A stretch of 62,550 nt of DNA from Candidatus Aenigmatarchaeota archaeon. Lineage in GTDB: Archaea; Aenigmatarchaeota; Aenigmatarchaeia; QMZP01; QMZT01. Made by a program: the position numbers. The stretch lies in NCBI GenBank assembly GCA_041489155.1, contig JBGPQP010000007.1, positions 1 to 62,550 of the forward strand, given 5' to 3'. Below are positions 36,301 through 42,300 of the stretch, in pieces (the stretch's first letter is position 1; each line of letters begins with the position of its first letter).

Positions 36301-39300
36301 CCCTCGTGTCTATGCCGCAGATGCCGGGGATCCCGTTTTCTGCCAGCCACTGATCGAGCGATTTTTCAGAGGTGGAATGCGAAGGCTTTTCGCAGAGTTC
36401 GCTGACTATGTAGCCTTCTATCATCGGCCTCCCAGATTCGAAGCTTTTCGAGGAGACGCCGTAATTCCCTATGAGCGGGTATGTCTGGCAGAGAATCTGG
36501 CCGTTGTAAGAAGGATCCGTTATGGATTCCGGATAGCCGACCATGCCCGTGTTGAAAACCACTTCGCCTGAGCTTTTTCCAAGCGCACCGAAGCCTTTAC
36601 CCTTCCAAACGCTCCCGTCTTCAAGAACCAGTATCGCTTTCGTCTCTTTTTCCATTGTTGTAAGACTTGTGCAAACATTTATAAATAGTTTACCCGCTAT
36701 CGATTTGAATAGAAAAGCCTGCCCTTGGTTTCAGCCTTTGCTATGTTCCCTCGCCTGGATGGAGGCAGCAAAAGAAACCCTTCAATAATTGGTTGCAGAA
36801 GTTTAAATTGATTTCTATGCTGCAGGAGACATTACGAAAATTTGCGGCTGGAAGCGAAACAACGGTGGTCATGCGACTTTGATGTCCATGCAGAACTTTA
36901 TTGTGCCGGGCCCGTAATCCGAGACCTTCTTCACGCTTATCGACCTGATTTTCCTTCCCTGATCTTTCAGATCAGCTCCGACGATTTCCTTTATGTCATC
37001 GAGGCCCTGCTCGGCAGACCAGAAATAATAGTGTATCATGCCGCCTTTCTTCCTCAGGCATTTCGAGGCGAGTTGCAGATACTGGTAGGCGCCCTTCGGA
37101 AGAGGCATGACGACCCTGTCGCACTGCCCGAGGCATTTGGCGCATTCGGTCTCAACGTCGCCGAGGACTGGAGTTATCTTGCCGCCCGCCTTGTTTATGC
37201 GTATGTTTTCCGCCATGTATTTGTAGGCGTCGGGGTTTATCTCGACGGCGTAAATCCTCTTTACCTTCGGCTGGCGCCTGGCGATGGCGATGGCGTATGG
37301 TCCTGCGCCTGCGAACATAACCATGACGGTCTCGTTCGCTTTAACCTGACCGGCTATCCTCTGCCTTTCGTTCGCCTCGCGCGGCGAGAAATAAACTTTC
37401 CTCACGTCCAGGCGAATCCGGTAGCCGTGCTCCTTGTGCTCGGTCTCCCTTTCCTCCCCGTGAAGCAGCTCCAGCTCTCGGAGCCTGTAAACGCCCTTCC
37501 TCTCGCTGCCCTTGTTGTAAACCGTCCTGACATTCGGGTGGACTTCAAGAAGCGCATCTACTATGTCCCCCTTCCTGTATAAAAGCTCTTGCGGGATTTC
37601 GAGTATCGCGATGTCACCGACGATGTCGAACGAGCCTTTCAACAGCTTCAGTTCCCTCTCCGGAAGCCTTTTTTCAAGAAGTTCCCGCATGTCCATATTT
37701 ATTACTAATAACCGGCCCTTATAAAAATCTGACCGGCTTTGCCCTGTATCAGCGAACATTATTAAGCCGGCGAAAGAAAATGATATTGTTCTTGGGATGC
37801 ACATGCTCGACATGAAGCTGGATCCGCTGGATTTTGCAGACCTCGCAGAAGCCGCAGAGATGAGTCTCGAAATGCTCAGCGATTCCTTCCGGGCAGAGCT
37901 GGAAAAGATAAAGGAGCTGCTGGACGAAGCGACGGACAAGGATAGCGAAGAAGACGAGGAAACGGATTACAAGGAGGCGTACGGCAGGGTTGACGAGGAA
38001 GCGAAGAAATATCAGGAAAAATTCAGCAAATACGCCGAAAAGCTGAAGGAGAATCTGGAGAAAGTATACAACGACGCCATCGCGAAAGAAACGGACGTTA
38101 AGCAGGAAAGGCGCGAAAAGACCGCGGAGAAGAGCATCAAAAGCCCGTGGGAGCGCGGCCACAAGCTCGGCTGCGGCTGCCCAGGATGCGCGACGTACCG
38201 CGAGTTTCACGGCATAGCGCCCGACAGCAACAAAACAATCTTCCTGATTGCGACAGATTTCGAAGACGCCGGCCCGGCTTTGAAATCAAAAAAAGGCAAA
38301 ACGGACAAATACGCAGAGGAAACCGGCTCCAAGCCCTGCGGAGGCAAGCTCTATAACTTCTTCCACGGTGACAGGGCGGAGATGAAAAACATACTTGGCA
38401 GTTACACGAAAAACTTCAATTTCGCCAGGGCAGGTTTTTAAACTGTTCGGTTATACTAGATTAAATTACAATATAATATATGACGGTTTTATTGCAACGG
38501 TGACTCAATGCTCGAGCTAAAATTAGACGGGAAAAGAGGGATATGGGCCGGAGAGGCAGAGACAGTGGAAAGACTGGCGAACGATTTCTTCGGCGACAGG
38601 GAGAAAGGTGAGCTTGTCCTTCTTCCGGAAGAAGCGCTTTACCTCATGCTTTTCAGGAACGCAGTGGTCCGCGACCAGGAAGGGAAGGAAATGGACTTCA
38701 ATGCCGTTGCAAGCCATTTCATAAAGAAGGAGCCGAGGCTTTTCATCCGCTACAACGCCTATCGCGACTGGAGGGACCGCGGCCTCGTTATCCGGAGATA
38801 CCGGCTCAACATACAGGGCAAGCATTCCAAGAAGACTTACAAGAAATATCCGGCGCAAAAACTTGAGGTCGAAGGCATCAAGGCGAAAGCCTACTGGTAT
38901 CCCGATTCGCTTTTCTCGGTACTGGACAACGAAGACGAGGGCAGGAAACTGTTCGACAAATACTGGCTGGGGCAGTACGGCGTTTACAAGCAGGAAAGGG
39001 GAAGGCAGTCGAAGCTGGACTTCTTCGAGACCATCTTTCTGGCGAAGCATTTCGGCGTCGAGATAATAAACAACGAGACGCGAAAACGGATGACCCATGC
39101 TGAGATAATGAAGGACGTCGTCAGGAAAAGGGAATATGCAAAACAGCTGTACGAGGTTTACGATGACTGGAGGATGAAGGCGTACGTCGTGAAAACCGGC
39201 TTCAAGTTCGGCTCCCATTTCAGGATATATTTCCCGGGCGCGTCGCCCGTGAAGGAGGACGAGTGGATTCATTCCAAGCACGTTTTGCACGTTTTTCCTA

Positions 39301-42300
39301 AGGACCAGAAGCTGCTAATTTCCGAGTGGTCCCGCGCAGTGAGGGTGGCGCATGGCGTCAAGAAGACCTTCATTCTTGGCATTCCTGAGATGGAGAAGAA
39401 GGACTACATCGACTTCCCGGTCGACTTCGTCGCGTACAGGAGGAAGAAAGACGGCGGGGTCTGGGCAAGGGAAACGCCGAAAGACAAGCCCAGATACATG
39501 CTGGTGGCGGTCTCGGAGGACGAGCACATCGGCGGCATCGAGCTAGCCTCGCTGCTGAACAAGGCGAAGGAAATGGGCCTGAACCTGCTGCTTTCCATAA
39601 CCGACAGGGAGACCAGCATAACATATTACGAACTGAAAAAGATAATCCTGCCGAAATCGAAATACGAATACTACGAAATAGAATGGTTCAAGCCTTGAAC
39701 TCCGTTTTGGTAAAGGCTGCTTTTACAGGCTGTTGCTTATGTTCCAGTCTACCATTATTTTGGATATCTTCTTCAGGTTGACATTGAAGTCGGTCTTGTA
39801 CCTCCCCGTGAAGCCCACAACGAATCTCATGAAGTCAAGAATATTCAACTGATTTTTTCAGGATTTCCTTCATCCCTTTTTCATGGCCCGCGCCAACAAC
39901 GCACACTATTTTGCCGAACCTTTTGCCCAGTTCCTTGAGGTTCTTTGCCATCACCTCGTTCCTCTCGATTACCAGGATTCTGTAAAAATTCGGCAGTTCA
40001 TCCTCAAGGAACTGCATCGCCTCTTCTATGATTTTTTGTTCAGGCACGCGATTTAGGTCGATTTTCTGCTTATGCTTTTCGGCGGAAGGAATGGCCATCC
40101 CTAAAAGCGCAAGCAGCAGGATCCATAGCAGCTTCAGCTTTTCGGACAGGGGAATTGATTGTATCCTGTAAAAAGTGACGTCTATGCGCTGGTCTATGAA
40201 GGCGAAGGGTATGTGCTTCTCCTTCGCAAGCCTGACGGCCTCCATCATTTCGGAGCCCGGAAGTATTCCTGTCTTCTTGCCAAAATACCTCTGGAACTTC
40301 TGGAGCACCCAGAATATAACGAAGGTTGGCAGGCCGAGAATTTTTATGGAGGAAAGCGTTTCCTTCTTCTCGCTTTCCATGGATCGAAATCTCAGCACGT
40401 CAAGCTCAATCGCAATGCAATCAGGCGTTTCTTTTTCGACTGTTTTCCTTACTCTTTCAAGGCTCTCCCGCGCGACGTGCGAGGTGGAAACGAAAATTAT
40501 TTTGGGCATATTTATAAAAACAGCTGTTATATAAATAATCATGAAATTTGGCTTGAAGATGGGCCCTGCAAACAATGAAGCTGATTCTCATCATCATACG
40601 TCGCTCACTAGGCCATGCGATTCCGAAATAATAATTTTCAGACAGCATTTGGAAAACGCAGCAAAAGCCAAGAGGGATATGAGAGTTCTGATACTGGGCT
40701 GCAGCCCGGAACTCAGGGAAATCGCAGCAAACACAAAAGCCAAAACAACTGTAATAGCCAATGACCTGGAGGTAATCGAAAGGACGACGAAAATGATGAG
40801 GAAGAGAAACAAGAACGAGGAGTGGCTGGAAGGCGATATAATGAATTTGCCGCTCAAAAAAGCGAGTTTCGACGTGATTTTCAGCGACCACGTGCTTTCT
40901 AACGTTTCGCCGTACAACAAGGAAAGCTTCTACGAGAGGATGAAAGAGGTACTGAAAAGCGACGGTTTTATCGTGATACGTTCCGTAGTTTTCAAGAAAA
41001 CCACCAAGCCGTTTGAAAACAAGATACTGAAATACTTCCAGATAGTCGACAAGAAATTCGGCAAGGAGGGCCTTTTCTCAGAATACTTCCCGATCTATCT
41101 TATGAGGCCCAGATGATTTTCTGGAAAAACGTTTAGAAAATCAACAACACAAGCACAGCCATGACTATCATGTTGCCGAAGTCGGCGACTGACGTCGTGA
41201 TCGGGATCAGGAAGTTGTTGGGGTCCTCGCCCTTCTTGAAGAAATGAAGACCCGCCACAACCGCTATCAAAAACAGCGTGCCGACAAGCACCAGCACGTC
41301 CAGTATCACTATTGACATTACCTTTACTATCACGGTCACGTCAACAACGTATGCCGAAAACGACGCTATAGCGAGCGCTACGGCAGAGCTGAATACCGCG
41401 GTCAGGAACGATATGAAGATCAGCTGGAGGAAAAGCCTCCTGATTTCCATGTTCTTCCACCACTCCGTCTTTATTATCCCCTCGTACAGCAGTGTCGAGA
41501 ACTTTGAGGAAATGACGGTGCCATAGTTGCCTATCATGTCGTTAAGGACGGGTAGGAGTATGAGCAGCGGTAAGAGCGAAACGAAGAGCGTTTTTATGTT
41601 CTCGAGCGCGAGGCCGCCGAATGAGCTGATGAGCGAAGCAAGCAGGAGGATTCGTATGCTTTCCCTGATTATCGTTTTCGGGACGTTCGAATGCGGGCCG
41701 TATTCTTTTACGTAGAAAAGCGTTTTCTTCGATATGTTGTGCTTCTTGTGTATCGCGTGTATGAGCGGATGGTAGTGCTTCCTCTTGAGCTTTTGCAGCT
41801 TCTTCAGATGTCTGTGCGCCGGATGGTGCTTGGTGCGGCTCATATTATCACCAGGACTATGAACAGCGAAACTATGCTGGTTATGTCGCCGGTTGACGTG
41901 ACGAATGTGCCCATTATGTTATTGGGGTCGTGGCCTTTCCTGAACAGGTACAGGGTCATAAAGAATGTTAGCGGGATTTCGATTGCATTCGCTATTATTC
42001 CTGCAATGACAGGGAAGATGATTATCTTCAGCGTGTATATCCCGAAAATCAGGAAGCTGAAAAGGAATGCTATGACGCCAAGCACGAAAGTCAAGAAAAT
42101 TACCATCAGGAATGATGCTATGAAGTTGCCCCTGGTTATCCGGGTGTTGTACTTGTCCGGCTTAACCACCCCCAAGAAAAGTCCAGAGCTAAGCCTGCAG
42201 GCAAGGGAACCGCTTATATTGCCTCTCATCTCAAGGAAACCGGGAAGCAGGATGAGCATGCCGGGTATCAGCAGCATCTTGTCCATGTATATGGCGAGTA

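What a model noticed while it worked through the whole genome (the two positions that open the first line are those of the whole stretch)
38508..39698. Three-unit (epsilon2-type) tRNA splicing endonuclease in an Aenigmatarchaeon
g00656 (396 aa) is a full-length homologue of the three-unit epsilon2 EndA of ARMAN-2, a type described only from Micrarchaeota. It is the only EndA gene here; the same architecture runs through order QMZP01 and a few other Aenigmatarchaeota families, while most families have only a ~190-aa alpha-type gene.
Evidence so far: PDB search: 4fz2_A E 6e-110 over query 12-396 / chain 14-387; other EndA types only E 1e-20 to 1e-7 over residues ~150-300. 371 phylum genomes: full-length 1-396 matches (43-88% id) in families f1-f6, f19, f20, f22, f31; elsewhere only residues ~145-297 in ~190-aa ORFs. 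PMC5829648 (passages, call 32) says epsilon2 is known only from Micrarchaeum/Mancarchaeum.
(Added by a program. Inside this text positions count along the whole contig: contig position 1 is position 1 of the stretch shown here. "Call 12" and the like, gene names such as g00115 and contig names such as C1 are that model's own, and its searches are not shown. The text may have been shortened before it was handed on; [...] marks where a part breaks off. The agent that wrote the report below was given it as the finding of a first reader that could run no searches.)

Follow-up and report, generated by a model that had tools for sequence, protein, structure and literature searches.

The report
Three-unit tRNA splicing endonuclease, Aenigmatarchaeota
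This gene encodes an intact copy of the rare single-chain "three-unit" tRNA-intron-cutting enzyme so far described only from Micrarchaeota, here in an Aenigmatarchaeota genome full of interrupted tRNA genes, which widens the known range of a known enzyme type rather than revealing a new one.

Summary
Window 38508-39698 (+) is an intact 396-aa ORF. It aligns end to end with ARMAN-2 EndA (4FZ2/9W2K, E 6e-110) and its model has the same fold (TM 0.89-0.92). All 12 residues named in the ARMAN-2 papers are kept: the Tyr/His/Lys triad, loop Tyr-Lys, Arg/Trp clamp and dimer salt-bridge residues.

It is the only EndA gene in this genome and in 22 of 23 genomes of its family. Named relatives are Aenigmatarchaeota MAGs. 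The protein tree separates an Aenigmatarchaeota clade from a Micrarchaeota clade (support 98), so contamination or recent transfer is unlikely. No paper found reports this enzyme type outside Micrarchaeota.

Three additions:
- 39 of 91 genomes of the order carry this gene plus a ~180-aa alpha-type gene; 47 carry it alone and 2 have alpha alone.
- All 25 alpha-type genes sampled in the phylum lack the canonical catalytic lysine.
- tRNA interruption is equally heavy in alpha-only relatives, so the enzyme type does not track intron load.

Verdict: a new member of a known kind, of moderate interest. Activity and dimer formation are untested.

The parts
38508..39698 (+). epsilon-type (three-unit) tRNA/RNA splicing endonuclease gene, 396 aa plus stop
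   Evidence: ORF. 4fz2_A E 6.2e-110 over q12-396. AlphaFold model with pLDDT 85.7 matches 9w2k_B and 4fz2_A at TM 0.89-0.92, rmsd 2.4-2.5.
38499..38503 (+). GGTGA ribosome-binding-like motif 4 nt before the ATG, behind an A+T-rich stretch
   Evidence: Read directly from the sequence. Inference only.
38508..38795 (+). alphaN unit (residues 1-96; ARMAN-2 residues 2-97)
   Evidence: PF02778 N-terminal domain at residues 5-66, E 1.9e-7. Borders transferred from Hirata 2012 (PMC3488258, passages) through the alignment by hand count.
38796..38882 (+). linker 1 (residues 97-125)
   Evidence: Aligned to ARMAN-2 98-125. Lowest-confidence part of the model: mean pLDDT 57 for residues 101-110.
38883..39383 (+). 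catalytic alpha unit (residues 126-292) with Y241, H255, K286, K233, R239, S256, R279
   Evidence: PF01974 at residues 214-296. Residues aligned to ARMAN-2 Y236/H251/K282/K228/R234/S252/R275. Invariant in all 45 Aenigmatarchaeota-clade rows.
38979..39008 (+). ASL-equivalent loop (residues 158-167, G-V-Y160-K161-Q-E-R-G...), the broad-specificity loop
   Evidence: Aligned to ARMAN-2 158-168. Y160 and K161 are invariant in 45/45 and 33/33 rows. Their role is taken from PMC12397907, sections 12-13.
39384..39428 (+). linker 2 (residues 293-307)
   Evidence: Aligned to ARMAN-2 289-300, hand count on the alignment.
39429..39695 (+). betaC unit (residues 308-396) with L10-loop D366/E368 and W393
   Evidence: Second, weaker PF01974 stretch at 39402-39626. 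D357/E359/W384 equivalents conserved.
20888..21001 (+). candidate substrate: tRNA-Gly(CCC) gene with a 39-nt intron (20948-20986) in the T-loop (59/60) in a strict h-B-H-B-h' motif
   Evidence: My own BHB scan plus ARAGORN on the spliced form. Weak Rfam tRNA hit at 20889-20961.
13634..13741 (+). candidate substrate: tRNA-Pro(GGG) gene with a ~33-38-nt insertion in the D-arm; no strict BHB found
   Evidence: Rfam RF00005 at 50.7 bits with a 38-nt insertion after the D-loop start. Relaxed-motif candidates only.

Best explanation
The gene encodes a functional epsilon-type RNA-splicing endonuclease. It is one chain made of three units: alphaN, a catalytic alpha unit and betaC. The enzyme most likely pairs into an epsilon2 homodimer through the acidic L10 loop (D366/E368) of one protomer and the basic pocket (K233/R239) of the other.

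Each alpha unit would cut one splice site of a bulge-helix-bulge or relaxed (bulge-helix-loop) motif. Y241 acts as base, H255 as acid and K286 stabilises the transition state. R279 and W393 of the partner protomer clamp the first bulged base. The loop residues Y160-K161 hold the scissile phosphate, which in ARMAN-2 gives broad substrate range.

In this genome, and throughout its family, it is the only EndA. It must therefore process all interrupted tRNA genes, including those with introns in the T-loop and D-arm.

Shown here: sequence, fold, residue conservation, sole-copy status, lineage placement and presence of interrupted tRNA genes. Inferred: dimerisation, activity and broad specificity.
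For: - Full-length alignment to ARMAN-2 EndA, E 6.2e-110.
- The model (pLDDT 85.7, pTM 0.79) superposes on 9w2k_B and 4fz2_A at TM 0.89-0.92 over ~400 columns. The next best, fused alpha-beta 5x89, reaches only TM 0.57.
- All 12 residues named in PMC12397907 (sections 12-13) and PMC3488258 (passages) are kept in the window protein. Nine are invariant in all 45 Aenigmatarchaeota-clade rows. The other three (D366, E368, W393) are kept in 44 of 45, the exception being a gap in one row.
- PF01974 occurs only in this ORF in the genome. In 22 of 23 genomes of the family it occurs only in the ~400-aa frame.
- Orthologues at 77-88% identity sit in all 4 same-genus genomes, one assembled in only 4 contigs.
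- 12 of the 24 Rfam-supported tRNA genes of the genome are longer than 90 nt, i.e. interrupted. Only 11 uninterrupted tRNAs are found by ARAGORN.
- My BHB scan resolves 3 canonical strict introns, 4 strict introns at non-canonical positions, and about 8 canonical-position introns without the inner helix, i.e. BHL-like.
Against: - No activity, oligomer state or expression data exist; the complex predictor was not available.
- Broad specificity is inferred from ARMAN-2 only.
- The link between enzyme type and intron load is not supported. Five alpha-only relatives have 55 of 109 Rfam tRNA hits longer than 90 nt. Five epsilon-bearing relatives have 45 of 111.
- The genome is 89.65% complete, so a second EndA in the missing part cannot be excluded from this genome alone. 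Its absence in the 23-genome family argues against that.
- My intron scan is home-made, and its 'relaxed' calls rest on a strict 3-nt-bulge definition plus unconstrained MFE folds.
Confidence: 0.9

Rival explanations
1. The contig is a mis-binned Micrarchaeota fragment, or the gene is a recent transfer from Micrarchaeota, so the taxonomic extension is an artefact.
For: Public labels are not fully reliable. One clade member is labelled Micrarchaeota (L047), two are labelled Nanoarchaeota (L063, L064), and one Micrarchaeota-clade contig is labelled as a bacterium (L091).
Against: The tree of 78 rows splits a 45-row clade (22 labelled Aenigmatarchaeota) from a 33-row clade (29 labelled Micrarchaeota) with SH-aLRT 98. 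The window sits deep inside the first clade. Identity to Micrarchaeota genes is only 45-51%, against 55-88% within the clade. 86 of 91 genomes of the order carry the gene, among them assemblies of 1-7 contigs.
Confidence: 0.03
2. It is a two-unit alpha'2-type or fused alpha-beta type EndA, not the three-unit type.
For: It has two PF01974 stretches and one N-terminal domain, as some two-unit enzymes would show.
Against: Alpha'2 chains (1r0v, 2gjw, 2ohc) align only to query ~159-291 with E 8e-12 to 7e-7. Their structural match is TM 0.41-0.50, against 0.89 for ARMAN-2. Unit order and both linkers align with ARMAN-2.
Confidence: 0.02
3. The protein is a non-catalytic or specialised paralogue (for example only for rRNA processing), and tRNA introns are cut by something else.
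For: In 39 of 91 genomes of the order an alpha-type gene coexists with it, so the two could divide labour there.
Against: This genome and 22 of 23 genomes of its family have no other PF01974 gene. All catalytic residues are invariant. The genome has at least 12 interrupted tRNA genes that need an EndA.
Confidence: 0.05

Closest known systems
epsilon2 EndA / VSEN of Candidatus Micrarchaeum acidiphilum ARMAN-2 (PDB 4FZ2 apo, 9W2K with BHB RNA; PMC3239211 listing only, PMC3488258 passages, PMC12397907 abstract and sections 12-13)
   Same: Same length class (396 vs ~390 aa) and same alphaN-linker-alpha-linker-betaC order. E 6e-110, 44-45% identity, TM 0.89-0.92. The triad, ASL Tyr-Lys, Arg/Trp clamp and L10/pocket residues are identical. 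It is the sole EndA in its genome, which has many interrupted tRNA genes.
   Different: The host phylum is Aenigmatarchaeota, not Micrarchaeota. The gene belongs to a separate, well-supported clade. It is ~10 aa longer, with small indels in the alpha unit and linker 2. It is biochemically untested.
epsilon2-type EndA of Candidatus Mancarchaeum acidiphilum Mia14 (mentioned in PMC5829648, passages)
   Same: A homologous epsilon-type gene carrying the L2 (ASL) loop.
   Different: It is also a Micrarchaeota relative of ARMAN-2. I did not fetch its sequence.
alpha4-type EndA (Methanocaldococcus jannaschii 1A79) and the ~180-aa alpha-type genes of other Aenigmatarchaeota
   Same: The alpha unit (residues ~126-292) is homologous: E 1e-16 to 1a79, and ~27-40% identity to the phylum's alpha genes. 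The Tyr and His are shared.
   Different: It has one unit, not three, no ASL and forms a tetramer. The phylum's alpha genes have Ala/Ser/Thr at the catalytic-Lys column and a basic insert before the His.
(alpha-beta)2 EndAs (Aeropyrum pernix 3P1Z/3AJV, Nanoarchaeum 3IEY, fused Methanopyrus 5X89)
   Same: Broad-specificity enzymes with a catalytic plus a structural unit and an Arg/Trp clamp. They work alike in outline.
   Different: They use separate alpha and beta chains (or an artificial fusion). The loop is CSL rather than ASL. TM is only 0.35-0.57.

Membership tests
epsilon2-type (three-unit) archaeal RNA-splicing endonuclease | Single chain with alphaN, alpha and betaC units joined by two linkers | tested here: met
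   End-to-end alignment to 4fz2_A. Foldseek TM 0.89-0.92 to 9w2k_B and 4fz2_A over ~400 columns. Pfam N-terminal domain plus two C-domain stretches.
epsilon2-type (three-unit) archaeal RNA-splicing endonuclease | Catalytic Tyr-His-Lys triad in the alpha unit (ARMAN-2 Y236, H251, K282) | tested here: met
   Y241, H255 and K286 align to the triad. Invariant in 45/45 clade rows.
epsilon2-type (three-unit) archaeal RNA-splicing endonuclease | ASL loop with Tyr160-Lys161 next to the active site | tested here: met
   Y160 and K161 sit at the same numbering. The motif G-x-Y-K is invariant in 78/78 rows.
epsilon2-type (three-unit) archaeal RNA-splicing endonuclease | Arg/Trp clamp for the first bulged base (R275, W384) | tested here: met
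   R279 and W393 are conserved.
epsilon2-type (three-unit) archaeal RNA-splicing endonuclease | Homodimer through the L10 acidic loop (D357, E359) and basic pocket (K228, R234) | tested here: inconclusive
   The residues D366, E368, K233 and R239 are all conserved.
epsilon2-type (three-unit) archaeal RNA-splicing endonuclease | Cleaves strict and relaxed BHB (BHL) introns at canonical and non-canonical positions | not testable with these tools
   Indirect evidence only. The genome holds introns at 59/60, in the D-arm and near position 7/12, plus BHL-like canonical introns, and it has no other EndA.
alpha'2-type EndA (considered) | Two tandem alpha-like repeats, each with N- and C-domains; homodimer | tested here: not met
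   Alpha'2 chains align only to the alpha unit. TM 0.41-0.50.

The most novel reading that the evidence does not exclude
Aenigmatarchaeota may preserve a replacement of one splicing endonuclease by another.

The phylum's usual alpha-type gene lacks the canonical catalytic lysine in all 25 genes sampled. The epsilon gene is shared with Micrarchaeota by ancient transfer or common descent, and it is the only EndA in the phylum with a complete Tyr-His-Lys triad.

Lineages stand at three stages: alpha only (most families), alpha plus epsilon (39 of 91 genomes of this order, also f22 and f31), and epsilon only (this family, 0 of 23 genomes with alpha).

In the two-gene genomes the enzymes would divide substrates or even form mixed assemblies. 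The 'ARMAN-specific loop' would then be a trait of a cross-phylum DPANN enzyme, not a lineage-specific one.
Probability: 0.3. Interest if true: 0.65.

Novelty: new member of a known kind. Interest (0 to 1): 0.45.

Why it matters
The origin of the three-unit EndA is called elusive in the literature because it was known from one small lineage (PMC5829648, passages). The 2025 structure paper still treats its specificity loop as ARMAN-specific (PMC12397907, abstract).

The enzyme is intact across a whole order of a second DPANN phylum, and it is found alone, beside an alpha-type gene, or absent. That gives comparative material to date and root the fusion. It also allows a test of whether enzyme type really co-evolves with intron diversity; here it does not seem to. 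It offers new proteins and natural substrates for biochemistry.

This does not change what the enzyme is believed to do.

Tried and rejected
- Complex prediction for the homodimer was not available.
- The look-up of sequencing runs listed no RNA holder. I did not lay reads, so nothing can be said about expression.
- The search of earlier findings by place returned nothing near the gene.
- ARAGORN with its intron option mis-assigned several anticodons (Pyl, 'Stop', odd anticodon positions). I replaced it with a BHB scan plus ARAGORN on spliced forms.
- A genome-wide pass for double-intron tRNAs gave only 2 doubtful candidates.
- Three hits of the strict scan at tRNA position 71-73 were dismissed as adjacency artefacts.
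- Several candidate regions stayed unresolved: C6:10190-10420, C1:52420-52610, C4:39020-39310, C9:8130-8460 and window 20120-20270.
- Rooting the epsilon tree with alpha-type genes on the alpha unit alone (96 rows, 177 columns, quick search) kept epsilon as one clade (100) and the Aenigmatarchaeota genes as one clade (98). It left the root unresolved. The Aenigmatarchaeota genes came out as sister to four hot-spring Micrarchaeia rows at only 86, so no donor or direction is claimed. Rows dropped before that tree: the 388-aa G263 gene and the truncated G138 gene.
- Partial genes with under ~330 aligned residues were dropped before the 78-row tree.
- The idea that epsilon goes with more interrupted tRNA genes was tested and not supported.
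- The supplements of the cited papers were not opened. The supplementary phylogeny of PMC5829648 (Figure S9) could hold further epsilon sequences that I did not see.
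Full report
**Observation.** The window holds an uninterrupted ORF at 38508-39698 (+) of 396 codons with an ATG start. A GGTGA motif lies 4 nt upstream of the ATG, behind an A+T-rich stretch.

A sequence search of all PDB chains gives ARMAN-2 EndA (4fz2_A, the same sequence as 9w2k) at E 6.2e-110 over query 12-396 / chain 14-387. Every other splicing endonuclease matches only the middle third, query ~125-302, with E from 7e-20 to 7e-7. Pfam finds the catalytic C-terminal domain (PF01974, E 5.6e-28, two stretches) and the N-terminal domain (PF02778, E 1.9e-7).

**Anatomy.** Hirata et al. 2012 (PMC3488258, passages) give these units for ARMAN-2:
- alphaN 2-97
- linker 98-125
- alpha 126-288
- linker 289-300
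- betaC 301-387
- specificity loop (ASL) 158-168
- dimer contact D357/E359 to K228/R234

Miyata et al. 2025 (PMC12397907, abstract and sections 12-13) name the RNA contacts: Y160 and K161 in the loop, K228, the triad Y236/H251/K282, S252, and the R275/W384 clamp.

By hand count on the alignment, the window protein has Y160, K161, K233, R239, Y241, H255, S256, R279, K286, D366, E368 and W393 at these places. In a MAFFT alignment of 78 near-full-length homologues, nine of the twelve are invariant in all 45 rows of the window's clade. The other three (D366, E368, W393) are kept in 44 of 45, the exception being a gap in one row. All twelve are invariant in the 33 Micrarchaeota-clade rows except one Tyr-to-Phe.

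An AlphaFold2 model built from a 43-sequence alignment (A1) has mean pLDDT 85.7 and pTM 0.79; its weakest part is linker 1. Foldseek places it on 9w2k_B (TM 0.89/0.92, rmsd 2.4) and 4fz2_A (0.89/0.91). The next entry is the fused Methanopyrus enzyme at TM 0.57, and two-unit alpha'2 enzymes reach 0.41-0.50. The three-unit architecture is thus met at both sequence and fold level.

**Whose gene is it.** In the large protein collection, homologues at 63-79% identity that carry a name are 'tRNA-intron lyase [Candidatus Aenigmarchaeota/Aenigmatarchaeota archaeon]'.

In the species-representative genomes, 199 stretches encode a relative. The 80 kept fall into two groups: records mostly titled Aenigmatarchaeota at 53-88% identity, including QMZP01000037.1 at 66%, and records mostly titled Micrarchaeota/Micrarchaeia/Norongarragalinales at 45-51%.

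A quick IQ-TREE (78 rows, 398 columns, SH-aLRT only) separates two clades with support 98:
- A clade of 45 rows: 22 labelled Aenigmatarchaeota, 17 'uncultured archaeon', one labelled Micrarchaeota, one labelled Nanoarchaeota, three genome handles, and the window.
- A clade of 33 rows: 29 labelled Micrarchaeota.

The window lies deep in the first clade, next to its same-genus relatives. The order forms a 42-row clade (support 100). The genes of families f20, f22 and f31 branch outside it. This excludes a mis-binned Micrarchaeota contig and a recent transfer.

**Distribution.** With the protein as query, 346 of 371 phylum genomes match. Near-full-length matches occur in f1-f6 (the window's order), f19, f20, f22 and f31; by best E <= 1e-70 that is 117 of 371 genomes by my count. 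All other families match only residues ~140-300 in ~190-aa frames.

f17-f23 form a second order, in which 22 of 118 genomes have the gene: f19 2/3, f20 1/1, f22 19/19, f18 0/23, f21 0/70. f31 lies outside both orders. The trait is therefore patchy over at least three orders.

**Sole copy or not.** In the window's genome, PF01974 hits only this ORF. In its family, 22 of 23 genomes have PF01974 only inside the ~400-aa frame and one has no hit. None has a separate short gene.

Elsewhere this is not so. Five epsilon-bearing genomes of f3, f4, f6, f22 and f31 each also have a separate 184-251-aa frame with a stronger PF01974 match (E ~1e-28). One of them is a single 1.1-Mb contig.

Searching the order with one such alpha protein gives a clearly two-peaked result: best E <= 1e-52 or about 1e-15. 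Alpha-type genes are found in f1 0/23, f2 1/1, f3 4/5, f4 13/14, f5 1/1 and f6 22/47. Combined, the 91 genomes divide as follows:
- 47 epsilon only
- 39 both
- 2 alpha only (G309 and G314, the latter in 6 contigs and 88% complete)
- 3 neither

Of five Micrarchaeota genomes, four have epsilon only and one has epsilon plus a 188-aa gene.

**An unexpected property of the alpha-type genes.** The column of the catalytic lysine (ARMAN-2 K282, window K286) holds Ala, or Ser/Thr, in all 25 alpha-type genes I sampled. The samples come from 12 families. They include five >=90%-complete alpha-only genomes in which this is the only PF01974 gene. Tyr and His are kept.

phmmer alignments to 1a79, 5x89 and 4fz2 put 'IRAT' opposite their 'VRKK/VRKD/VRKT'. 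These proteins carry a basic insert (G-V-K-x-K-K/R-G-P-K) just before the His. This is possibly the L3 loop that Kaneta et al. describe for DPANN alpha4 enzymes (PMC5829648, passages); the equation is my inference. I did not resolve what this means. It makes epsilon the only EndA of the phylum with the full canonical triad.

**Substrates.** ARAGORN finds only 11 uninterrupted tRNA genes in the 1.13-Mb genome. The Rfam tRNA model finds 24 above threshold, of which 12 are longer than 90 nt, 11 are of normal length and one is ambiguous.

I wrote a scan for the h-B(3)-H(4)-B(3)-h' motif, followed by ARAGORN on the spliced product. It resolves:
- Three canonical strict introns: Lys-UUU 97 nt, Gln-CUG 49 nt, Glu-UUC 63 nt.
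- Four strict introns at other places: Met-CAU and Gly-CCC in the T-loop, Glu-CUC after position 7, Pro-CGG after position 12.

With relaxed criteria it finds about eight canonical-position introns that have the anticodon-stem helix and central helix but no inner helix directly after a 3-nt bulge, i.e. BHL-like. These are Ile-UAU, Thr-UGU, Ser-GGA, Leu-UAA, Thr-CGU, Trp-CCA, Val-UAC and Asn-GUU. These calls are crude.

Two such genes lie in the window itself:
- Gly(CCC) at 20888-21001 has a 39-nt intron at 59/60. Its outer helix is the T-stem (5 bp), the central helix is 4 bp and the inner helix is 4 bp.
- Pro(GGG) at 13634-13741 has a ~38-nt insertion in the D-arm.

**Does enzyme type track intron load?** It does not at this resolution. 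I counted Rfam hits longer than 90 nt. Five alpha-only genomes give 16/36, 17/37, 11/14, 5/8 and 6/14. Five epsilon-bearing genomes give 12/24, 13/27, 2/10, 8/20 and 10/30. The window's genome gives 12/24. Heavy tRNA interruption is a trait of the phylum, not of the epsilon lineages.

**Literature.**
- The 2019 review PMC6379350 (passages) and the 2025 structure paper (abstract and two sections) name no other host.
- PMC13728533 (2026, passages) only lists the four types.
- Six searches found no paper that reports the type in Aenigmatarchaeota.
- The library lacks most subscription journals, and I opened no supplements.

Several notes call the Micrarchaeota genes ordinary.

**Neighbourhood.** The neighbouring genes are:
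- Upstream and divergent: a Trm5/TYW2-type tRNA methyltransferase (36869-37579, -).
- A 214-aa ORF with no Pfam hit (37797-38441, +).
- Downstream: a TraB-family gene, a small methyltransferase and an MgtE-like transporter.

I see no operon logic beyond the tRNA-modification neighbour.

**Verdict.** The gene is a genuine, intact, probably essential epsilon-type splicing endonuclease. It is the first-described kind of enzyme in a second phylum: a new member of a known kind. The more interesting matters lie around it. These are the mosaic of epsilon-only, epsilon-plus-alpha and alpha-only genomes, and the lysine-less alpha-type genes of the phylum. Both deserve their own follow-up.

Noticed in passing
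L113-L117, L145-L164 (alpha-type EndA genes of other Aenigmatarchaeota genomes): All 25 alpha-type (~180-190 aa) EndA genes sampled have Ala (or Ser/Thr) at the column of the canonical catalytic lysine, with motif AHNIRAT/AHSIRAR. Tyr and His are kept. A basic insert lies before the His. In alpha-only genomes this is the sole PF01974 gene.
   Followed up: partly
G265, G270, G300, G158, G227 (loci L113-L124); order-wide: Many epsilon-bearing genomes also carry a separate alpha-type EndA gene: 39 of 91 in the order. 47 have epsilon only, 2 alpha only and 3 neither. One of five Micrarchaeota genomes (G373) also has both.
   Followed up: partly
window 20888-21001 (+): tRNA-Gly(CCC) gene with a 39-nt intron (20948-20986) at T-loop position 59/60 in a strict bulge-helix-bulge motif. 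Default ARAGORN missed it, and the Rfam score was below threshold.
   Followed up: yes
window 13634-13741 (+): tRNA-Pro(GGG) gene with a ~33-38-nt insertion in the D-arm. The exact splice sites are unresolved and no strict BHB was found.
   Followed up: partly
window 20156-20235 (+): Weak tRNA-model hit (25.3 bits, below threshold). It may be another heavily interrupted tRNA gene; my scan did not resolve it.
   Followed up: partly
window 36869-37579 (-) and 37797-38441 (+): A Trm5/TYW2-type tRNA methyltransferase lies divergently upstream of the endonuclease gene. Between them is a 214-aa Lys/Glu-rich ORF with no Pfam match.
   Followed up: no
L151 (G263:C6:26300-27900, family f39): An EndA-like match inside a 388-389-aa frame that is not the epsilon type: it matches only query 162-300, at E 1.6e-19. 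It may be another multi-unit architecture in the phylum.
   Followed up: no
G147:C7:7415-8524: The epsilon gene of this genome is read through one TGA and one TAA. It is a probable pseudogene or assembly error.
   Followed up: no
L091, L047, L063, L064, L112: Public labels conflict with the gene tree. A contig labelled Candidatus Kaiserbacteria carries an epsilon gene identical to that of a Norongarragalinales MAG. One 'Micrarchaeota' record and two 'Nanoarchaeota' records fall in the Aenigmatarchaeota clade or resemble it. These are likely mis-binning or mislabelling.
   Followed up: no
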